In this document: positions 8,555 through 15,751 of the stretch, one piece after another
Position numbering within the stretch: position 1 is the stretch's first letter
Layout: each line of letters opens with the position of its first letter
Assembly: GCA_965221905.1 (NCBI GenBank)
Contig: OZ244922.1
Location: 1,280,001-1,344,000 of the forward strand
Length of the DNA stretch: 64,000 nucleotides
Direction: 5' to 3'
Source of the DNA: Chloroflexota bacterium
GTDB taxonomy: Bacteria > Chloroflexota > UBA11872 > VXOZ01
The notes under the pieces: model-generated
The model's input: the letters and a program-made list of their open reading frames with translations, nothing else
Databases searched by the model: none
What the model was told of the DNA's origin: nothing
Position numbers and translations under genes: made by a program

Positions 8555-10975
8555 TTAGCAACGTGAGTATCCGCAGACGAGGCACTTCTCGCAGCCTTCT
8601 TCGTAGACGACACCGGCCGCGCCGCAGTCCGGGCAGATCTCGCCGTGCCGCGATTCGCGGCTCGGGCTTGCGGGTTGTGCGCGGGCCAAGCCGAGTTGCA
8701 CCACTGACGCCTCTTCGGTGGCGGCAGCGCCGTTAATGCCGTTCGTGCCTGTGGAAATGTTGTAAATCTCGGCGATCACCTGTGCAATCGCATCGGGTAT
8801 CGAGAGGACGCGGTTGGGGCCGATGCCCATCACGTCCACCGAGCCGATGCCGCGCAAGTGCTTGTGATACTGCTTGATCGGAACGCCGCTCCGCAGACCG
8901 AGCGTGATCGAGCGCGCCAGCGCCTCCAAATATGCTTGGTCTGCCGTACCGGCTTTGCCGAGCGTGAGGAAGATCTCGATGGGGCGGCGATCTTCGCCTT
9001 TACCGGTGGAGTTGATGGTCACGTAGAGGTCGCCGCGCGCCGTGACCTTCTCCACGGTCACGCCTGACACAACGGCCGGTCGCTTACGCGGGTGCATTTC
9101 TACCGGCACCGCCGCGCTGTTAGCCTCTTGTTTGTCCGCGCCTTTGTCAACGGCCTCTTCCTTCTTCTCTTCCACGCGAGAGAGCACCGGAGTGCGTGAG
9201 CCGTCGCGGAAGAAGGTGATACCCTTGCAGCCGAGGTCGTAGGCAAGGGTGTAGAGCTTATCGACGTCGGCTATCTCATAAGAATTCGGCGCGTTGACGG
9301 TTTTCGAAATGCTGGAGTCCGTATATTCCTGGATGACGGCCTGCACGCGCACGTGGTCCTCCGGACGCAGGTCGTTGCTGGAGGCGAAGTAGTCCGGCAC
9401 GGGCTCGCCGTCATGCGCATCTTGCCACTCTTTGAAAAGCGGGTGGTAGAGGATGTGTTCGCCGGTGCGGTCGACGCGCTTCATGGCAAAGTCGAATACC
9501 GGCTCAATGCCGCTTGAAACGCCGGAAAGCAGTGACGTGGTGCCGGTAGGCGCCTGCGTGAGGATTACACCGTTGCGGACGCCATGCGTGGCAATCTGCT
9601 CTTGCAGCGCCGCCGGCAACTGCCGGATGAACGAGCCTTGCATGTACTTTTCACTGTCGAATTGCGGAAAAGGCCCTTTTCCCTTGGCGATCTCCATAGA
9701 CGCGCTGTAGGAAGCATCGCGGATGGTCCGGTAGATACGTTCCACAACGGGCATCGACTTTTCGCTGCCGTAGCGCACCTTCATCTTGATGAGCGCATCG
9801 GCAAGACCCATAGTGCCCAGGCCCGTCCGGCGCGTGCCGTCACGCTGTTGTTGCTTGTTTTCCTCGATGAAGTACGGCGTGGCATCGATGACGTTATCGA
9901 GAAAGCGGATCGCGACCCTTGACGTCTTGGCCAGCAATTCGTAGTCCATCACGCCGTCTTCCACGAAGGCCGAGAGGTTGATGGCTCCGAGGTTGCACAC
10001 GCCCCAAGCGGGCAGCCCTTGCTCGCCGCAAGGGTTCACGCAGCGGATTTTCTCGAAATACCAGGTGTTGGAGCGCTTTTGATAGCGCTCCATGAAGACC
10101 AAGCCGGGCTCTGCCGAGCGCCAGGCGGCTTCGCAAATCTTGGCCCAGATTTCACGCGCCTTTACGGTGCGATGGACTGTGACGGCTTTGCCGCGAGCGC
10201 GCCAAGCGGCCAAATCGCCGTTCCACACCTCGTCGTACTCCGGATCGGTCGTGTCCGGGAAGACCAGGTCCCAGGTGCCGTCTGCCTTAACTGCCTCCAT
10301 GAAAGAGTCGGAAGCGCAGATGGAAAGGTTTGCGTGGTTGATGCGGGAGAGATCGGTCTTGACCGTGATTAACTCTTCGATGTCCGGGTGCCAATCGTCC
10401 AGCATGAGCATGAGCGCGCCGCGGCGCGAGCCGCCTTGCTGAATCACGTCGCCGGTGGCTACCGAGTACAACTCACCCCAGGAGCACGGCCCGCTGGCGG
10501 TACCGTTCACTGATCGAATGTAAGAGCCACGCGGCCGTAGACTGGAAAGATTAATGCCCACGCCGCCACCCCTCGCCATGATCTCCGTCATGACGCTGAG
10601 GTTCTCCAGAATGCCGCCGCGGCTGTCCTGCGGCGAGGGGATCACGTAGCAGTTGTAGAACGTGACCTCATGGCCCGTGCCCGCGCCCGCCAGGATGCGG
10701 CCGCCGGGAACGAACTTGAAGTCCTGCAACGCCCGATAGAATTTTTCTTCCCATGCAATGCGGTTTTCTTCTCCTTCTTCCACGGCGGCTATGCCGCGCG
10801 CGACGCGACGCCACATCTGCTCCGGGTAGTGCTCCAAAGCGGTGCCGGTCTCATCTTTATTGGAGTACCGATCGGCAAAGACCTTCTGCCGGATTCCGTC
10901 GAGCATGGTGCCGGTTTCGGGCTCCGGTACAGGCTGCCCGTTGGTACTTCTGCCGTTGGTATGAATGACTGCCAT
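8555..10975 (-). CDS. nrdJ: Class II adenosylcobalamin-dependent ribonucleotide reductase with C-terminal TSCPD/Zn-ribbon
   Basis: Motifs PGGRIL, NCYV, GGGVG, QQGGSRRGA, NPCGEQ, CNLG, APTGT, SISKTVN, C-terminal CPDC...CLVCGYSRC. Start ATG 10975 after GAGGAG. Confidence 0.95.
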   Translation of the reverse strand: MAVIHTNGRSTNGQPVPEPETGTMLDGIRQKVFADRYSNKDETGTALEHYPEQMWRRVARGIAAVEEGEENRIAWEEKFYRALQDFKFVPGGRILAGAGTGHEVTFYNCYVIPSPQDSRGGILENLSVMTEIMARGGGVGINLSSLRPRGSYIRSVNGTASGPCSWGELYSVATGDVIQQGGSRRGALMLMLDDWHPDIEELITVKTDLSRINHANLSICASDSFMEAVKADGTWDLVFPDTTDPEYDEVWNGDLAAWRARGKAVTVHRTVKAREIWAKICEAAWRSAEPGLVFMERYQKRSNTWYFEKIRCVNPCGEQGLPAWGVCNLGAINLSAFVEDGVMDYELLAKTSRVAIRFLDNVIDATPYFIEENKQQQRDGTRRTGLGTMGLADALIKMKVRYGSEKSMPVVERIYRTIRDASYSASMEIAKGKGPFPQFDSEKYMQGSFIRQLPAALQEQIATHGVRNGVILTQAPTGTTSLLSGVSSGIEPVFDFAMKRVDRTGEHILYHPLFKEWQDAHDGEPVPDYFASSNDLRPEDHVRVQAVIQEYTDSSISKTVNAPNSYEIADVDKLYTLAYDLGCKGITFFRDGSRTPVLSRVEEKKEEAVDKGADKQEANSAAVPVEMHPRKRPAVVSGVTVEKVTARGDLYVTINSTGKGEDRRPIEIFLTLGKAGTADQAYLEALARSITLGLRSGVPIKQYHKHLRGIGSVDVMGIGPNRVLSIPDAIAQVIAEIYNISTGTNGINGAAATEEASVVQLGLARAQPASPSRESRHGEICPDCGAAGVVYEEGCEKCLVCGYSRC

Positions 10976-11087
10976 CGCGAGATTCTCCTCGGTACATTCG
11001 GCAGCGCGTGATTCGCGCGGGGGTAGGAGTAATTTAGGGACCCAAGAAGATACTATAGGCCGTAGTGGTGCCACCTGAATGCCAAAT

Positions 11088-11142
11088 AAATAGTATATCT
11101 TGGTGTAGAGGAATTATAGATAACAAGATATAGAGGTGTCAA
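11088..11142 (-). promoter_or_regulatory. Sigma70 promoter of nrdJ with tandem NrdR-box-like sites
   Basis: Minus strand TTGACA (11142-11137), 18-bp spacer, TATAAT (11118-11113). Two C-AAGATATA-containing NrdR-like boxes, one in the spacer and one near 11091-11106. Confidence 0.75.
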
Positions 11143-11413
11143 GGGAAATTGGGGGTACTTTGGAGTTTTTCGCCTTTCTGCGATTAATAATTCGCGGCGG
11201 GTTGACATGCGCAACGATAGGTACATTTGCAGCATACCACAAGCCCCTGAGTTAGTGATAAAGAGTCCAAATCGGAATTCACGAGGGTGACTAGAATAGG
11301 CGGCGTTGGGAAGGGGAAAATGAAAAGGGAAAAGGGGCTTAAGCAACGTTCAGCGACTTAGATATCTATGTCAAAGAATTGTCGTTCGGCTGGTCACAGA
11401 GCGGTCATTGACC

Positions 11414-11974
11414 CTAGCTCCGCTTTTGCACCGCCGTAGGGTTCTCCCTATCGAATGTCCATTGCGCCGGGTTGTCGTGGATGTACTGGCGAATCTTTGT
11501 CAGAGACTCTTCGCTGCGCACGACGTGCTCGAAGTAATTCCGTTGCCAGAGGGGTCTGCCGGGAAGCCCATGCGCAGAATTGACCCGTTTCGTACTGACG
11601 GTCTTGAATGCGCCAATCAGACGTCCCAAGGGCTTACGTTTGCTGTCCCACGAGTCTGCTCCGGTAGGGGCGGTTCGCGAACCGCCCCTACGCGCGTCAT
11701 CGGTGATCATAAGGATGCCATGGAGATGGTTCGGCATGACGACAAATTCGTCCAACACCACGTAAGGGTATTGGGTCTCCAGCCATTGCCAGCAATCGGA
11801 CACCAATCGGCCAGTCCTGTTCAGGCACATATTGCCATCCACTATCTCGCCGAACAGACACGCCCGTCCTTGGGCAACCACGGTCACAAAGTATGCGCCC
11901 GCCTGCGAATAGTCGTATCCCTTTAGGCGGATAGAACGCCGACGCTGGCTGTCTGGAGCGTAGGGGCTACTCAT
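11414..11974 (-). CDS. REP-associated tyrosine (HUH/Y1) transposase, RAYT-like (IS200/IS605 superfamily)
   Basis: RRSIRLKGYDYSQAGAYFVT, MPNHLH (HUH), WQRNYFEHVVR, catalytic YIHDNP. Confidence 0.9.
   Translation of the reverse strand: MSSPYAPDSQRRRSIRLKGYDYSQAGAYFVTVVAQGRACLFGEIVDGNMCLNRTGRLVSDCWQWLETQYPYVVLDEFVVMPNHLHGILMITDDARRGGSRTAPTGADSWDSKRKPLGRLIGAFKTVSTKRVNSAHGLPGRPLWQRNYFEHVVRSEESLTKIRQYIHDNPAQWTFDRENPTAVQKRS
11664..11691. repeat. Perfect 28-bp GTAG-type REP palindrome inside the RAYT ORF
   Basis: GTAGGGGCGGTTCG|CGAACCGCCCCTAC, translated in frame as RRGGSRTAPT. Confidence 0.85.
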
Positions 11975-12033
11975 CGCAATCTCTCCCTTTGCTCAGAGGA
12001 CGGCCAGCGCGACGCCGGTCTGGGTGAGGGTGG

Positions 12034-12453
12034 TCATTGGACTTCCCAGGGACTAATGACGGCGACATCGACGTAGTCGAAGTCGCAGACGTTGCGCGTT
12101 GTGATCGTCAGGACATTGCTTTGTGCGATGCCTGCGATGAGGGCATCGCCGAGGTCGAGAGGTCTGCCCATGCGGCGGGCCTGCGCTCGGAGACGGGCGG
12201 CACTCTCCGCCGCCGGCCTGTCCAGAGCGAGAATGCGGTCGGCGTATGTCGAAATGATACTCGTGAGCAGGGCTTGTAAGCGGTCGCGGCGGTGCCCTTG
12301 CGGGAGCAATTGAACGCCGTATTCCAACTCGTGTACGACCAACGACGGCAGCCAGAGGTCTTCTTGCTCGGCCAAGAACGCGATTACACCCGGGTGCGGG
12401 ACCTCTCGCGTCATTTCCGAAAGCACGTTGGTATCCAGGAGAAATCCGCTCAC
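12034..12453 (-). CDS. vapC: VapC-family PIN-domain toxin
   Basis: LLDTNVLSE, ELEYG, DALIAGIA, TRNxxDF. ATGA-type overlap with the upstream antitoxin. Confidence 0.92.
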   Translation of the reverse strand: MSGFLLDTNVLSEMTREVPHPGVIAFLAEQEDLWLPSLVVHELEYGVQLLPQGHRRDRLQALLTSIISTYADRILALDRPAAESAARLRAQARRMGRPLDLGDALIAGIAQSNVLTITTRNVCDFDYVDVAVISPWEVQ

Positions 12454-12734
12454 TCAGTGTCTCTGTGGACGAACGGAATCTCCCGACGGGAATCGCGGTC
12501 GCGTGGGATTTCGAGGTTCGCGCCACGCGGGACGTTCTCTATCAGCCACTGACCCAGCGGCTTGCGTGGGGATGACTTCTGGTACCAGGTGTTGGCGGGC
12601 ACGACGACACAGGGATTGCGGATGCCGATATGCTGTGGCCCCTCGGATTCTGCGAGCCGCAGGATTTCAGATAGCCGCGCCTTAGCCTCGGCCACGGTCC
12701 AAACGCGGCGGGTATCAGGTCCTTTCAAGTGCAA
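12450..12734 (-). CDS. Phd/YefM-like antitoxin
   Basis: WTVAEAKARLSEIL...EGPQHI N-terminal motif, immediately upstream of the PIN toxin. Confidence 0.85.
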   Translation of the reverse strand: MHLKGPDTRRVWTVAEAKARLSEILRLAESEGPQHIGIRNPCVVVPANTWYQKSSPRKPLGQWLIENVPRGANLEIPRDRDSRREIPFVHRDTE

Positions 12735-12747
12735 GCTCCTTAAAATA

Positions 12748-12775
12748 TATAGACTAGTCTATACTAGACTAGTCA
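12748..12775. promoter_or_regulatory. Putative TA autoregulatory operator (tandem GACTAGTC palindromes)
   Basis: Perfect 16-bp palindrome TATAGACTAGTCTATA followed by a second TAGACTAGTC, just upstream of the antitoxin start. Confidence 0.6.
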
Positions 12776-12888
12776 GATGAATAGATGCAAGTGCTTGGTG
12801 CAGACACAGACGAACCGCGCGCGCCACTAGCCGCCACCGGATACTCAGGCAAGCGGTCCCGATTCGGCATTGGTTCCTGCGGAGGCAG

Positions 12889-13680
12889 TCATAGACCCTC
12901 CGGCGCACGCGACACGGCCATGGGGTTCTCCCTATCGAACTCCCACCGCGCCGGGTTGTCGCTGATGTACTGGCGAATCTTTGTCAGAGACTCTTCGCTG
13001 CGCACGACGTGCTCGAAATAATTCCGCTGCCACAACTTGCCGGAGAATTGCGGCCACCGTAGGGTCTTCACACCCCGCACGTACTCCACGGTCGTCAGAG
13101 ACTTGAATGCCCCAACCACGTCCCCCAATGCGTACCGGCGATCCACTGTAGGGGCAACCCTCGTGGTTGCCCGTGGGTCATTTTCGCTAATCTCCGCGCC
13201 GAGCGGGGCTGATTCCTGGGCCGCCGTAAGGGTAACCCTCGTGGTTGCCCCTGGGTCAATATTCCTGGTTTCACCTTGGGTCAGGGCTGGTTTCTGGTCT
13301 TGCGTAGGGGCAACCCTTGTGGTTTCCCTATGGTCTATTTCCCGGGTTGCCCCGTGGGGCGGGACCGCTTCCTGGGCGCCCACAAGGGGCGCCCCTACCG
13401 GTTGGACAATGCTGATGATGCCGTGGATATGGTTGGGCATCACGATGAACGTGTCCAATGCGATGCCTGGGAAGCGGCCGGGAATCTCTTGCCAAACCCG
13501 CCGGATCATCTCTCCAGCGTCGTTCAACCGCATCTCTGCGCCGACCACGTCACCGAACAGACACGCCCGCCTTTGGGCTACCATGGTCACAAAGTATGCG
13601 CCCACCTGCGAATAGTCGTATCCCCGCAGGCGGATCGACCGGCGACGCCGGCTGTCTGAGGGCGGGTTGAATCGGCTCAC
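12889..13680 (-). CDS. Second RAYT-like HUH transposase with in-frame REP-derived repeat insert
   Basis: RRSIRLRGYDYSQVGAYFVT, MPNHIH, WQRNYFEHVVR, YISDNP, plus an insert of about 75 aa with repeated TTRVAPT. Confidence 0.9.
   Translation of the reverse strand: MSRFNPPSDSRRRRSIRLRGYDYSQVGAYFVTMVAQRRACLFGDVVGAEMRLNDAGEMIRRVWQEIPGRFPGIALDTFIVMPNHIHGIISIVQPVGAPLVGAQEAVPPHGATREIDHRETTRVAPTQDQKPALTQGETRNIDPGATTRVTLTAAQESAPLGAEISENDPRATTRVAPTVDRRYALGDVVGAFKSLTTVEYVRGVKTLRWPQFSGKLWQRNYFEHVVRSEESLTKIRQYISDNPARWEFDRENPMAVSRAPEGL
13148..13398. repeat. Intragenic REP array: three direct GTAGGGGCAACCCTCGTGGTTGCCC-type units at 78-bp period plus one inverted related unit
   Basis: Units start at 13148, 13226 and 13304. 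Inverted GGGCGCCCACAAGGGGCGCCCCTAC at 13374-13398. Confidence 0.85.
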
Positions 13681-13808
13681 TGCTTTCCTTAAAAGCTCAG
13701 ATAGTCACTGGATCGACTACGGACCGGTCGCAAGCGGTCACTGGGCTTCGCGCGTAGTTTGGAGGAAGCTGCAATTCTCTTGGAAAAAGAGATGTCTACT
13801 TTTGATGA

Positions 13809-14045
13809 CTAGGCCAGGTGTTTTAGCACCTCGTCGTGGTCGGGGAAGCGGCCTTCATTGTGTTTGGAGAAGATGACGTTGTTATTGAGGGTTACCTCGA
13901 AGGCACCGCCGCCGGAGGGGATGAGTTCCAGGCTTTCCATATTGTGTTCGTATTCATTCAGCACTTTTTCCGCCAAACTGACGGCTTTCGGGAGGTAGCC
14001 TCACGAAGTGCAGTATTCGATGCTGAGACGATGCTTCTCGGCCAT
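13809..14045 (-). CDS. Rdx (SelW/SelT/SelH)-family selenoprotein, CxxU (not in ORF track)
   Basis: Manual translation MAEKHRLSIEYCTS(U)GYLPKAVSLAEKVL...LIPSGGGAFEV...IFSKHNEGRFPD, 78 aa. In-frame TGA at 14003-14001, AAGGAG RBS, downstream hairpin CCGTCA-GTT-TGGCGG. Confidence 0.88.
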
Positions 14046-14500
14046 GGATGTGCTCCTTTTTGCGCGGTATTGAGGTTTCTGTTCGGTCTTCCCTCAGTAT
14101 GGCCTTACCGGCGCGCTTCGGTCAATGGTCGCGGCGTGTTGGGGTTTCAGGGAGATTGATTCCCTTCCTGCATCTAGTACCGGTCAGGCTTTGCGCGGGA
14201 ATGACAGCGAGACAAGCGCAAGACATGGTTCTCGATGCCGCGGGAGGGTCAATGAAGCCTCTTGTTTAGGTTAGGCCCTGCCGGCGCGGTAATAGGCAAT
14301 AACCTACAGGTGCTGCACTCGCGGTTTCATTGACAGTTCGCACTTTGAGTTGGAATTGTGCGCCAAAGGCTTGCGTGGGACACCTCGGCTTGGTACCCTG
14401 TCCTTGGCTACTGTGGGGTTGGTGTTGCGATCCTGAAGCTAGGCTGCTTCGATCCATAGCAATGCGCTGCCGGTAACTTCAGGGAGGATGAAGAGTAGTC

Positions 14501-15751
14501 ATGAGCCAAGCGAAGTATGATTCGCAGGAAAGTTCTGTGCCTGTCGACGGTCAGGTGCGTGTGAGCGTGCGTGGTCTATGGAAGGTATTCGGCCCGGCCG
14601 ACGGCCCTGACGTGGGGGAAACGCTCGAGGGCAAGACCAAAGACGAGGTGCAAGACGAGTTGGACTCGGTGCTGGCGCTGCACGACGTGAGCTTCGACGT
14701 TCATCAGGGCGAAACGTTCGTGGTGATGGGCCTTTCCGGCAGCGGCAAGTCTACGTTGGTGCGTTGTCTGATCCGCCTCATCGAGCCGACGGCCGGCCGG
14801 GTCGTCATGGATGGGGAAGATATCCTCAGATACACCGAGGAGCAGCTCACCCAGGCGCGCCGTCAGAAGACCGGGATGGTCTTCCAGTACTTCGGCCTGT
14901 TGCCCCACCGCACGGTGATCGACAATGTCGCCTGGGGCTTGGAAGTGCAAGGAGTGCCTCGGGAAGATCGGCGTGCGCGAGCGGCCGAACTGCTGCGAGT
15001 TGTCGGGCTGGATGGCTGGGAAGAATACCACGCTGCGGCCCTCAGCGGCGGCATGCAACAGCGTGTCGGCCTGGCGCGTGCCTTGGTGTGCGACCCCGAC
15101 ATCTTGCTGATGGATGAGCCATTCAGTGCGCTAGACCCCCTCATTCGGCGAGACATGCAGGATGAACTCCTCCGTCTCCAGGAGCAGATGCAGAAGACTA
15201 TAATCTTCATCACCCACGATCTCACTGAGGCAACCAAGCTGGGAAGTCGCATCGCCATTATGCGTGACGGCGCCATTGTGCAGGTCGGTACGCCTGAGGA
15301 GATCATGGCACGCCCGGCTGACGACTATGTGGCTGACTTTACCCGCGACGTTCGCCGGTCTACCGTGGTTACCGTAGGCTACGTGATGGAACGCTGCCCG
15401 GTCCAGGTTAGTGCCGCAGAATCACCACGGGAAACGATTGCCAAGCTTGAAGCAGGCGACTCCGATGCGGCATTTGTCGTTGCTGAGGATGGCGTCTATC
15501 AGGGGGAGGTCTGTCGCGACGAAGCCCGCGAGGCAGAAGTGCGCGGCGACTCCACCATCGAACGCGCCGTGAACCGCAGACTCGACCCTGTATTTGCACG
15601 TGATACCATCGAAGGGGCTCTCTCCAAGGCTTGGTCTTACCGAGGCTTGATCCCCGTTGTAGACGGGGCGGGGAAGTTGGTTGGGGCGGTTGAACGTGAA
15701 GCGCTCTTCGAAGCCGTATTTGCGGATGAACGTACGGAGGTCGGCGTGTAG
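14501..15751 (+). CDS. proV: Glycine betaine/proline ABC transporter ATP-binding subunit with CBS domains
   Basis: GLSGSGKS, LSGGMQQRVGLARAL, DEPFSALDPLIR. Confidence 0.92.
   Translation: MSQAKYDSQESSVPVDGQVRVSVRGLWKVFGPADGPDVGETLEGKTKDEVQDELDSVLALHDVSFDVHQGETFVVMGLSGSGKSTLVRCLIRLIEPTAGRVVMDGEDILRYTEEQLTQARRQKTGMVFQYFGLLPHRTVIDNVAWGLEVQGVPREDRRARAAELLRVVGLDGWEEYHAAALSGGMQQRVGLARALVCDPDILLMDEPFSALDPLIRRDMQDELLRLQEQMQKTIIFITHDLTEATKLGSRIAIMRDGAIVQVGTPEEIMARPADDYVADFTRDVRRSTVVTVGYVMERCPVQVSAAESPRETIAKLEAGDSDAAFVVAEDGVYQGEVCRDEAREAEVRGDSTIERAVNRRLDPVFARDTIEGALSKAWSYRGLIPVVDGAGKLVGAVEREALFEAVFADERTEVGV

What the first reader, a model, noticed from the sequence alone, without database searches (positions are those of the whole stretch)
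13148..13398. Regularly spaced repeat-spacer REP array translated inside RAYT2
Seen: three direct ~25-bp palindromic repeats (GTAGGGGCAACCCTCGTGGTTGCCC type) at an exact 78-bp period, with largely different ~53-bp spacers, plus one inverted related REP. All preserve the frame, adding about 75 aa (26-aa units ending TTRVAPT) between the HUH motif and the LG..VGAFKS helix. Inference: the nuclease amplifies REP units in its own gene and selection keeps only frame-preserving ones. The repeat/variable-spacer layout might also act as a record or guide-like structure, which is speculative.
Basis: partly seen in the sequence, partly recalled or inferred. Interest (0 to 1): 0.7.

Follow-up and report, generated by a model that had tools for sequence, protein, structure and literature searches.

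The report
REP hairpin repeats inside RAYT gene
A domesticated transposase gene carries in-frame copies of the small palindromic DNA repeats (REPs) that this enzyme family is thought to mobilise, here as a triplicated 78-base unit; this oddity was already described for this enzyme subclass in 2018, so this is a new example and not a new kind of system.

Summary
The repeats are real. ORF 12889-13680 (minus strand, 263 aa) is a Y1/HUH transposase of the RAYT (TnpA_REP) type. Between its HUH motif and the next helix lie one GTAG-tagged REP hairpin and three opposite-facing REPs at an exact 78-bp (26-codon) period, all in frame. The "spacers" are not independent. They are 58-62% identical in register (28% expected), have no significant match elsewhere in the genome and none in the phage or plasmid collections. 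The array is therefore a diverged tandem triplication of one REP-plus-flank unit, and the record/guide idea is rejected. The same 25-nt REP occurs in clusters elsewhere in the genome. The neighbouring paralogue RAYT1 carries in frame a 28-nt "double-foot" REP that has 10 identical genomic copies. Close relatives have 1, 2 or 3 units. Of 112 analysable homologues, 109 carry REP-foot peptides at the same site. AlphaFold2 predicts the insert as a disordered loop. Quentin et al. 2018 (PMC6006769) already reported that subclass 2.4 TnpA_REP genes predominantly contain in-frame REP insertions between HuH and Y, with short DNA repeats. Verdict: a new member of a known kind. Still open is whether the intragenic REP is a selected cis element. 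An earlier-notes look-up by place returned only one unrelated note.

The parts
12889..13680 (-). RAYT2: 263-aa Y1/HUH transposase of the TnpA_REP (RAYT) type, subclass 2.4-like, GTG start
   Evidence: ORF. Pfam PF01797 scores 28.3 bits (cut-off 23). NCBIfam NF047646 (REP-associated tyrosine transposase) scores 51.8 bits in 2 stretches, below its cut-off of 80. 5722 homologues at E<=1e-5. The model's best fold matches are ISDra2, IS608 and IS200 transposases, and 4er8_A (TnpA_REP) at E 1.3e-3. Core dN/dS is 0.16-0.23 against 4 relatives.
13423..13434 (-). HUH motif codons (N83 H84 I85 H86)
   Evidence: Read. N83, H84 and H86 are invariant in all 32 sequences of alignment A1. The motif matches the subclass 2.4 signature NH[IFV]H.
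13374..13398 (-). REP in GTAG-first orientation on the coding strand, translated VGAPLVGA; this is the inverted REP of the finding
   Evidence: 9-bp stem, 3-nt loop, 1 mismatch. V95, G96, L99 and V100 are at least 90% conserved in A1.
13304..13381 (+). 78-bp unit 3 (first unit in the reading direction): REP 13304-13328 plus 53-bp flank; encodes ...QEAVPPHGATREIDHRETTRVAPT
13226..13303 (+). 78-bp unit 2: REP 13226-13250 with a degenerate GTAA head, plus 53-bp flank; encodes QDQKPALTQGETRNIDPGATTRVTLT
   Evidence: Not detected as a GT[AG]G hairpin.
13148..13225 (+). 78-bp unit 1 (last unit in the reading direction): REP 13148-13172 plus 53-bp flank; encodes AAQESAPLGAEISENDPRATTRVAPT
   Evidence: Its 25-nt REP is 100% identical to genome position 190740-190764.
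13099..13128 (-). Start of the helix after the insert (LGDVVGAFKS, residues 185-194)
   Evidence: Model helix H185-207 with pLDDT 83-95. G186, G190, A191 and K193 are invariant in A1.
13000..13032 (-). WQ...EH..R segment (W217-R227), the counterpart of the E. coli TnpA_REP residues that contact the GTAG guide
   Evidence: W217, Q218, H224 and R227 are invariant and E223 is at least 90% conserved in A1. Their role is inferred from Quentin et al. 2018, passages on W94, Q95, E100, H101 and R104.
12952..12969 (-). Y motif YISDNP (Y238-P243), the presumed catalytic tyrosine
   Evidence: Read. Y238, N242 and P243 are at least 90% conserved. The subclass 2.4 signature is YIxNNP.
11414..11974 (-). RAYT1: 186-aa paralogue (59-63% identical in the matched parts) without the long insert
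   Evidence: Pfam PF01797 scores 24 bits.
11664..11691 (.). 28-nt perfect-palindrome 'double-foot' REP (GTAG...CTAC), in frame inside RAYT1 and translated RRGGSRTAPT
   Evidence: It has 10 exact copies in the genome, this one included, plus 3 variants.

Best explanation
The region is the hypervariable linker between strand beta3 (which carries HUH) and helix alphaC of a RAYT/TnpA_REP enzyme of subclass 2.4 (RAYT group 4). In this subclass the linker is built from in-frame copies of GTAG-tagged REP hairpins, the same short palindromes that are scattered through the genome and that RAYTs are thought to bind and cut as single-stranded DNA. Here a basic pair of REPs, one forward (read as VGAPLVGA) and one reverse (read as ATTRVAPT), has grown by tandem duplication of a 78-bp unit (reverse REP plus 53-bp flank) to three units. 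Growth most likely came from slipped-strand mispairing or unequal recombination between the REP hairpins. Only changes that are multiples of three survive. They are tolerated because the encoded 82 residues form a disordered surface loop away from the catalytic core. The REP parts stay similar while the flanks drift, which points to constraint or homogenisation at the DNA/RNA level. Shown here: the anatomy, the reading frame, the homology of the spacers, the genomic REP family, the variation in unit number, purifying selection on the core, and the predicted disorder of the insert. Inferred: how the duplication happened, that the enzyme is active, and that the loop is neutral for activity.
For: The protein is a Y1 transposase, by Pfam and NCBIfam hits and by fold. 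It has the motifs NHIH, WQ and YISDNP, against the subclass 2.4 signatures NH[IFV]H, WQ and YIxNNP.

The period is exactly 78 bp. Spacers are 58-62% identical against 28% for shuffles. REP parts are 84-92% identical: 8 mismatches in 75 REP positions against 62 in 159 spacer positions, Fisher p 6e-6, although the pairs are not independent.

The REP is a genomic family, with 29 hits at up to 4 mismatches in clusters at about 7 loci. It was found in 28 of 41 related genomes, with controls of 0-1.

Unit number differs among close relatives. G003 (89% identical) and P0004 have 1 unit. P0003, P0005, P0006, P0010 and G001 have 2. The window, P0001 and P0002 have 3. Other family members carry other in-frame arrays: 6 x 60 nt in L036 and 4 x 48 nt in L026.

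Of the best 120 of 5722 homologues, 112 could be analysed. Of these, 109 carry at least one xPT foot peptide in the linker and 29 carry at least two ATTRVAPT-like motifs. The HUH-to-WQ distance ranges from 56 to 234.

Residues 97-178 have pLDDT below 50 and no secondary structure, while the core scores 80-96. Core dN/dS is 0.16-0.23. The linker's dS is lower than the core's in 4 of 4 comparisons, and its dN/dS is 0.23-0.61.

Quentin et al. 2018 describe exactly this for subclass 2.4 (passages, Table 1 and the supplement legends of Figures S6 and S10).
Against: NF047646 scores 51.8 bits, below its curated cut-off of 80. The insert splits the match, but formally the equivalog test fails.

Unlike most published REPtrons, no GT[AG]G hairpin with a stem of 8 bp or more flanks either gene: in window 9500-15500 such stems are the intragenic REPs plus one unrelated hairpin at 15341-15363, about 1.7 kb beyond RAYT2, and the rest are weak 6-bp stems.

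Tandem Repeats Finder did not call the array.

The better conservation of the REP parts could instead reflect repeated replacement or gene conversion by genomic REPs rather than in-place constraint.

Nothing here shows that the protein is made or active.
Confidence: 0.8

Rival explanations
1. The intragenic REP is not a tolerated passenger but a selected cis-acting part of the system. The RAYT gene would keep a copy of its own substrate in its coding strand, either as a protected source copy of the REP family or as a site where the enzyme or an RNA-level hairpin controls RAYT expression. The 78-bp expansion would then tune that function.
For: The feature is near-universal at one site: 109 of 112 homologues, and A-P-T (P177, T178) is invariant in 32 of 32 aligned sequences, RAYT1 included.

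Stem sequences differ between gene lineages but remain complementary. At least six double-foot stems were seen, and the encoded amino acids change with them. A double-foot REP lies 20-50 nt after the HUH codons in 15 genes of 10 of 41 genomes, with 0 in the control.

The intragenic copy equals the dispersed copies exactly: 10 identical 28-mers for RAYT1 and a 25-mer for RAYT2. The intragenic variant follows the genome's main variant in G033 (AGCC stem) and in G021 and G000 (AACC stem).

Linker dS is lower than core dS in 4 of 4 comparisons. The array folds better than shuffles: RNA z -4.2, DNA z -3.8. Here the only REPs near either gene are the intragenic ones.
Against: Covariation between lineages is also expected if different REP families simply replace one another at a tolerant hotspot.

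REP family A has 32 copies in this genome with no RAYT carrying it. Across the genus its copy number does not follow the presence of an A-type RAYT: 107 and 26 copies with one, 1-42 without.

The dS comparison rests on 38-67 codons and on related genomes. There are no functional data for this subclass; the biochemistry read in Corneloup et al. 2021 covers only groups 2 and 3.
Confidence: 0.25
2. One reading: each REP was inserted separately into the gene by the nuclease, and selection kept only the frame-preserving insertions.
For: The REPs belong to a mobile-looking genomic family. In-frame REP insertions into many unrelated genes are documented (Di Nocera et al. 2013, passages). The REP parts are much more alike than the flanks.
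Against: The 53-bp flanks are homologous in exact register (58-62% against 28%). Independent insertions would not produce that. The exact 78-bp period, and the relatives with 1, 2 or 3 whole units, fit unit duplication and deletion.
Confidence: 0.1
3. The array is a CRISPR-like record or guide store: constant repeats separating acquired, informative spacers.
For: Only the superficial layout of regular palindromic repeats with less-conserved intervals.
Against: The spacers are diverged copies of each other. Their best match elsewhere in the genome is 16 nt (E 0.03). No match was found in the phage or plasmid collections. The whole array is translated within a gene that is under purifying selection. 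Unit counts among relatives run only from 1 to 3, with homologous content.
Confidence: 0.01
4. The repeats are kept for the protein: a repeated peptide module (…TTRVAPT) in a flexible linker, with a binding or spacing role. The DNA palindromes would be incidental.
For: The unit next to the helix (RATTRVAPT) is nearly invariant at the protein level across homologues of 45-60% identity. Linker dN/dS stays below 1 (0.23-0.61).
Against: The peptide is exactly the translation of a GTAG REP that is also frequent outside the gene. Other lineages have different peptides (GGSRTAPT, GTTCRAPT, AGLKPAPT) that share only the hairpin logic. The region is predicted to be disordered, and its synonymous divergence is reduced.
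Confidence: 0.07

Closest known systems
TnpA_REP subclass 2.4 (Quentin, Siguier, Chandler, Fichant 2018, BMC Genomics 19:475, PMC6006769), equal to RAYT group 4 of Bertels et al. 2017
   Same: The HuH, W and Y signatures match. There is a variable-length insertion between beta3 and alphaC and no C-terminal tail domain. The REPs are of the 'canonical long' type (three G-C pairs at the foot) and the 'double-foot' type. REP sequences are inserted in frame within the tnpA_REP gene between HuH and Y, and short DNA repeats explain the length heterogeneity.
   Different: No REPs flank either gene here, whereas the paper found REPs within 1 kb of the large majority. The paper, as far as the passages and legends read here show, does not describe a regular 78-bp REP-plus-flank tandem unit, exact identity between intragenic and dispersed copies, or reduced synonymous divergence. 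I saw only the legends of Figures S6 and S10, not the figures. Assignment with the authors' own profiles could not be run.
E. coli REPtron: TnpA_REP (YafM, PDB 4ER8) with REP/BIME sequences (Messing et al. 2012, PMC3479197, search listing only; Corneloup et al. 2021, PMC8266576, passages)
   Same: It has the same Y1 HUH fold (4er8_A: E 1.3e-3, prob 1.00). It uses GTAG-tagged hairpin substrates. The WQ..EH..R residues that contact GTAG are conserved.
   Different: The E. coli enzyme belongs to subclass 2.2. Its REPs have bulged stems and lie only outside the gene, and its gene has no insert. Cleavage at CT/CA guided by GTAG has been shown only for groups 2 and 3, not for this subclass.
Intragenic GTAG/CGTC REPs and Rickettsia RPEs in housekeeping genes (Di Nocera et al. 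2013, PMC3733652)
   Same: Short palindromic repeats are translated in frame, often as dimers or clusters adding 20-82 aa, presumably in loops. [quoted passage not shown]
   Different: There the hosts are unrelated genes and the insertions sporadic. Here the host is the REP-associated enzyme itself, and the site is the same across thousands of homologues.
CRISPR arrays
   Same: Regularly spaced, partly palindromic repeats.
   Different: The 'spacers' are homologous to each other. The array is coding, has only three units, and has no external spacer matches.

Membership tests
TnpA_REP / RAYT subclass 2.4 (Quentin et al. 2018, Table 1) | HuH motif NH[IFV]H | tested here: met
   NHIH at residues 83-86. 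RAYT1 has NHLH, which is close but outside the printed set.
TnpA_REP / RAYT subclass 2.4 (Quentin et al. 2018, Table 1) | W motif WQ, and conserved GTAG-contact residues (W94, Q95, E100, H101, R104 in E. coli numbering) | tested here: met
   W217, Q218, H224 and R227 are invariant and E223 is at least 90% conserved in 32 sequences. The equivalence to the E. coli residues is inferred from the motif, not from a structural superposition.
TnpA_REP / RAYT subclass 2.4 (Quentin et al. 2018, Table 1) | Y motif YIxNNP | tested here: met
   YISDNP at 238-243, with D in place of the first N. Y238, N242 and P243 are at least 90% conserved.
TnpA_REP / RAYT subclass 2.4 (Quentin et al. 2018, Table 1) | Insertion of variable length and sequence between beta3 and alphaC | tested here: met
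   All length variation in alignment A1 falls between the HUH strand and LGDVVGAFKS. In the model: strand E84-91, disordered 97-178, helix H185-207.
TnpA_REP / RAYT subclass 2.4 (Quentin et al. 2018, Table 1) | REP sequences inserted in frame within the tnpA_REP gene; REPs of the canonical long or double-foot type | tested here: met
   Four canonical GGG...CCC-footed REPs in RAYT2 and one double-foot REP in RAYT1, all in frame.
TnpA_REP / RAYT subclass 2.4 (Quentin et al. 2018, Table 1) | Canonical REPs within about 1000 nt on either side of the gene (true of the 'large majority' of members) | tested here: not met
   In window 9500-15500 the stems of 8 bp or more are the intragenic REPs plus one unrelated GT[AG]G hairpin (8-bp stem, 1 mismatch) at 15341-15363, about 1.7 kb beyond RAYT2 and outside the 1-kb flank; the others are weak 6-bp stems. 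The authors do not present this as a strict criterion.
TnpA_REP / RAYT subclass 2.4 (Quentin et al. 2018, Table 1) | No C-terminal tail domain; 8-aa insertion at the end of alphaB; assignment by the authors' HMM/MCL classification | not testable with these tools
   Only 20 residues follow the Y motif, which fits the absence of a tail. The alphaB insertion and the authors' profiles were not available.
NCBIfam NF047646 REP-associated tyrosine transposase (equivalog) | Whole-protein score at or above the curated cut-off (80 bits) | tested here: not met
   51.8 bits in 2 stretches. The 82-residue insert splits the match. The Pfam PF01797 cut-off is met: 28.3 against 23.
GTAG-tagged REP (Di Nocera et al. 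2013; Quentin et al. 2018) | 5' GT[AG]G tetranucleotide directly at the foot of a G+C-rich hairpin of 20-40 nt | tested here: met
   Three of the 4 intragenic copies qualify (13148, 13304 and 13374 on the minus strand), with stems of 8-9 bp and loops of 3-5 nt. Unit 2 has GTAA.
GTAG-tagged REP (Di Nocera et al. 2013; Quentin et al. 2018) | Repeated many times in the genome, mostly outside genes | tested here: inconclusive
   There are 29 copies at up to 4 mismatches and 57 double-foot REPs against 0 in the control. These copy numbers are modest. No gene annotation was available. The clusters mostly lie outside long open frames, but this was judged only from stop-free frames.
CRISPR array | Unique spacers unrelated to one another, between conserved repeats, in non-coding DNA | tested here: not met
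   Spacers are 58-62% identical in register. The array lies in an ORF whose core dN/dS is 0.16-0.23. Adjacency of cas genes was not tested.
IS200/IS605 transposase TnpA_IS200 (subclass 1.1) | Y motif Y---Q, length of about 150 aa, multiple near-identical copies | tested here: not met
   The Y motif is YISDNP. The length is 263 aa. The only paralogue of this type is 59-63% identical. Adjacency of tnpB was not tested.

The most novel reading that the evidence does not exclude
In subclass 2.4 RAYTs the REP inside the ORF would be a constitutive, selected element rather than an accidental insertion. The enzyme's gene would carry its own substrate hairpin, co-evolving with the genome's REP family. 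That hairpin would serve as a protected source copy of the REP family, or as a self-recognition site that couples RAYT expression or gene integrity to REP activity. Tandem expansions such as the 78-bp triplet here would change its dosage.
Probability: 0.2. Interest if true: 0.65.

Novelty: new member of a known kind. Interest (0 to 1): 0.3.

Why it matters
The feature as first described is a further, well-resolved example of something already in print: REPs translated in frame inside subclass 2.4 RAYT genes. Its value is as a clean case. Two tandem paralogues in one complete genome each carry a different REP type in frame. One of these REPs is exactly identical to nine dispersed copies. The other has expanded as a 26-codon unit, and close relatives hold 1, 2 or 3 units. 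This makes an open question concrete and testable. Does the REP inside the gene matter for the REP-RAYT system, as self-recognition, regulation or a source copy? Or is it just debris in a tolerant loop? No biochemistry exists for this subclass in the papers read here.

Tried and rejected
Tandem Repeats Finder on 12800-13800 returned no rows. The array is too diverged for its thresholds, so the repeat finder and a register-based identity test were used instead.

The PDB sequence search gave only weak hits (2fyx_A, E 0.45). The fold search was used instead.

Public runs. Contigs of X2, X3 and X4 break inside the array. The 'joints' that skip 44-201 bases have sides of only 24-26 nt, which is REP-to-REP matching that probably comes from other REP loci or other organisms. 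They therefore give no verdict on unit-number polymorphism.

In an RNA library (X20, a metatranscriptome), two 98-nt contigs cover 13376-13473 with 1 and 5 differing letters, and one 184-nt contig covers 13444-13627 with 12 differing letters. This is at most a weak hint that this RAYT or a related one is transcribed. DNA carry-over is not excluded, and the array itself is not bridged.

Searches of the array against phages and plasmids found no match.

Copy number of REP family A does not follow the presence of a RAYT carrying it. G011 has 107 copies and G013 has 26, both with such a RAYT. Fourteen same-genus genomes without one have 1-42 copies, G000 (32) included. The genomes are related and few, so nothing is concluded either way.

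The earlier-notes look-up by place returned one unrelated note.

I first took Y221 (in WQRNYF) for the catalytic tyrosine. Table 1 of Quentin et al. points instead to the YIxNNP motif, that is Y238.
Full report
**1. What is in the sequence.**

Window 12889-13680 (minus strand) is a 263-aa ORF with a GTG start. On the plus strand three direct copies start at 13148, 13226 and 13304, exactly 78 bp apart. A related palindrome lies in inverted orientation at 13374-13398.

Each copy opens with a 25-nt element. It has a GTAG head (GTAA in the middle copy) followed by a G+C-rich hairpin with an 8-9 bp stem and a 3-5 nt loop. The 21-nt core with up to 3 mismatches occurs 3 times in the window, against 0.00 expected and 0 of 100 shuffles with any hit.

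On the coding strand the order is one REP in GTAG-first orientation, translated VGAPLVGA, followed by three REPs in the opposite orientation. Each of these ends a 26-codon unit (…ETTRVAPT, …ATTRVTLT, …ATTRVAPT). The frame is kept throughout. The descriptive part of the finding therefore holds.

**2. The 'spacers' are diverged duplicates.**

In gapless register the three 53-bp intervals are 58%, 62% and 62% identical. Shuffled versions average 28% (sd 3.5%) and never exceed 43% in 10,000 trials. The REP parts are 84-92% identical. That is 8 mismatches in 75 positions against 62 in 159 for the spacers (Fisher p 6e-6, pairs not independent).

None of the three intervals has a significant match elsewhere in the 3.52-Mb genome; the best is 16 nt exact at E 0.03. 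The whole array has no match in the phage or plasmid collections.

The array is thus a tandem triplication of one 78-bp unit (REP plus flank) that has since diverged. It is not a series of independent insertions, and it is not a repeat-spacer record. Tandem Repeats Finder did not report it, as expected at this divergence.

**3. The gene.**

The protein matches Pfam Y1_Tnp (28.3 bits; cut-off 23). It also matches NCBIfam 'REP-associated tyrosine transposase' in two stretches (51.8 bits, below the cut-off of 80).

An AlphaFold2 model built on a 32-sequence alignment has a confident core (pLDDT 80-96). Residues 97-178 have pLDDT below 50 and no secondary structure. They sit between strand E84-91, which carries HUH, and helix H185-207. 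The model's best PDB matches are the ISDra2, IS608 and IS200 transposases, followed by the E. coli REP-associated transposase 4er8_A (E 1.3e-3, prob 1.00).

The conserved motifs are NHIH (83-86), WQ (217-218) with E223, H224 and R227, and YISDNP (238-243).

Against four relatives the core has dN/dS of 0.16-0.23, so the gene is under purifying selection. The linker has lower dS than the core in 4 of 4 comparisons: 0.17 vs 0.30, 0.55 vs 0.72, 0.78 vs 1.50 and 0.95 vs 1.61. Its dN/dS is higher, at 0.23-0.61. The samples are small (38-67 codons) and the genomes are related.

**4. The repeats are the genome's own REPs.**

The core motif, at up to 4 mismatches, occurs 29 times in the genome. The copies are clustered at about seven loci, near 187.3, 190.6, 204.3, 1022.8, 1050.5, 2813.4 and 3403.2 kb, plus the gene itself. 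The 25-mer of unit 1 recurs exactly at 190740-190764. Most clusters lie outside long open frames.

A second paralogue, RAYT1 (11414-11974, minus strand, 186 aa), lies 0.9 kb away. A PIN-domain ORF and an antitoxin-like ORF sit between the two genes. RAYT1 lacks the long insert. At the same site, however, it carries a 28-nt perfect palindrome with GTAG at one end and CTAC at the other, translated RRGGSRTAPT. That 28-mer has 10 exact copies in the genome, the intragenic one included.

In all, the genome holds 57 such 'double-foot' elements, against 0 in the control. Three main stem families account for 32, 10 and 8 of them.

Neither gene is flanked by such hairpins. Between window 9500 and 15500 the stems of 8 bp or more are the intragenic REPs plus one unrelated hairpin at 15341-15363, about 1.7 kb beyond RAYT2; the remaining GT[AG]G hairpins have weak 6-bp stems. 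Two other Y1-type ORFs in the genome have no intragenic REP.

**5. Relatives.**

There are 5722 homologues at E<=1e-5, and among the 120 listed the lengths run from 160 to 379 aa. In an alignment of 32 of them, all length variation lies between the HUH strand and LGDVVGAFKS, and P177 and T178 of 'APT' are invariant.

Of the best 120 homologues, 112 had recognisable HUH and WQ motifs; 8 were dropped for lacking them. Of the 112, 109 have at least one xPT foot peptide in the linker, 102 have at least one ATTRVAPT-like motif, and 29 have two or more. The HUH-to-WQ distance runs from 56 to 234, with a median of 94.

Close relatives differ by whole units. The 89%-identical orthologue in G003 and P0004 have one unit. 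P0003, P0005, P0006, P0010 and G001 have two. The window, P0001 and P0002 have three.

Other lineages have built different in-frame arrays at the same site, for example six 60-nt VGAPLVGAQ units in L036 and four 48-nt units in L026. At least six different double-foot stems occur in different RAYT genes. Each is self-complementary, and the encoded peptide changes accordingly.

A double-foot REP lies 20-50 nt after the HUH codons in 15 genes of 10 of 41 related genomes, with 0 in the control. The canonical REP was found in 28 of 41 related genomes. In G033 the intragenic variant (AGCC stem) is also that genome's commonest variant.

**6. What is already known.**

Quentin, Siguier, Chandler and Fichant (2018, PMC6006769) define TnpA_REP subclass 2.4, which equals RAYT group 4 of Bertels et al. 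I read passages, Table 1 and the supplement legends.
- The motif signatures are NH[IFV]H, WQ and YIxNNP.
- The beta3-alphaC insertion varies in length and sequence.
- There is no tail domain.
[quoted passage not shown] The legends of Figures S6 and S10 agree, but I could not see the figures themselves.

Di Nocera et al. (2013, PMC3733652; passages and one section) document in-frame GTAG REPs in many other genes. In the parts I read they do not mention REPs inside RAYT genes. Corneloup et al. (2021, PMC8266576; passages) give biochemistry only for groups 2 and 3. Bertels et al. (2017, PMC5581495; passages) place group 4 in Cyanobacteria, Chlorobia and Caldilineae.

**7. How it most likely works.**

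*Shown.* The linker is made of REP hairpins. It expanded by duplication of a 78-bp unit. Only in-frame states are seen among intact homologues. The encoded segment is predicted to be disordered. The catalytic core is conserved.

*Inferred.* Duplication and loss of units happen by slippage or unequal recombination between the hairpins, possibly helped by the enzyme's own single-strand cutting and joining at REPs. The loop is neutral for activity.

The stronger conservation of the REP parts, the lower synonymous divergence, the exact identity with dispersed copies and the near-universality of the feature leave a more interesting reading open. On that reading the intragenic REP is itself functional, as a self-recognition or regulatory site or as a source copy. 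Two points count against it. Replacement by other REP families at a tolerant hotspot would produce the same covariation. And one REP family has 32 copies here with no RAYT carrying it, with copy number across the genus not following such a RAYT.

The array folds more stably than shuffles both as RNA (-117.9 kcal/mol, z -4.2) and as DNA (-60.2 kcal/mol, z -3.8). That is expected for any REP cluster.

**8. Verdict.**

Amplification by the nuclease is unproven, and the record/guide idea is wrong. The case is a new member of a known kind, subclass 2.4 / group 4 RAYT with intragenic REPs. Interest is modest. What remains of value is a clean, testable system for asking whether the intragenic REP is functional.

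Noticed in passing
window 11414-11974 (-), REP at 11664-11691: The paralogue RAYT1 carries an in-frame 28-nt perfect-palindrome 'double-foot' REP (GTAG...CTAC, read as RRGGSRTAPT). It is exactly identical to nine other copies dispersed in the genome.
   Followed up: yes
window 12034-12453 (-) and 12450-12734 (-): A PIN-domain ORF (PF01850, E 5.6e-13) overlaps by 4 nt a small ORF with a weak Phd/YefM antitoxin match (E 8.8e-4, below the cut-off). This VapBC-like pair sits exactly between the two RAYT genes.
   Followed up: partly
window 12931-13020 (RAYT2) versus 11447-11536 (RAYT1): The two paralogues are about 68% identical in DNA over the N-terminal part (155 of 228 nt). They share a near-identical patch after the WQ motif, with 24-30 of 30 nt identical in sliding windows and 110 of 135 nt over the last 45 codons. 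This suggests gene conversion between the tandem copies.
   Followed up: partly
G000:C1, 32 sites listed (outside the window): The commonest double-foot REP family of this genome (32 exact copies) has no RAYT carrying it here. In G011 (107 copies) and G013 (26 copies) a RAYT has this REP both inside the ORF and about 365-380 nt away on each side.
   Followed up: partly
G000:C1:552970-552997 and G000:C1:3403161-3403185 (outside the window): REPs lie in frame inside long open frames of other genes. One is a double-foot REP near the C-terminal end of a 1065-codon open frame. The other is a canonical REP read as APTRGAPT in a 379-codon open frame. The genes were not identified.
   Followed up: no
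L036 (G037:C1:1773948-1777196) and L026 (G011:C1:191520-194783): Other RAYT homologues have built different in-frame REP arrays at the same site: six 60-nt VGAPLVGAQ units inside a 527-codon open frame, and four 48-nt RRGSSRTAPT units.
   Followed up: partly
G000:C1:190600-191030, 1022800-1023340, 2813360-2813660 (outside the window): The canonical REP family is concentrated in a few blocks of 4-7 copies in mixed orientation at spacings of about 50-57 or 65-92 bp. The layout resembles BIMEs and the block-clustered GTAG family that Di Nocera et al. 2013 noted in a Thermomicrobium genome.
   Followed up: partly
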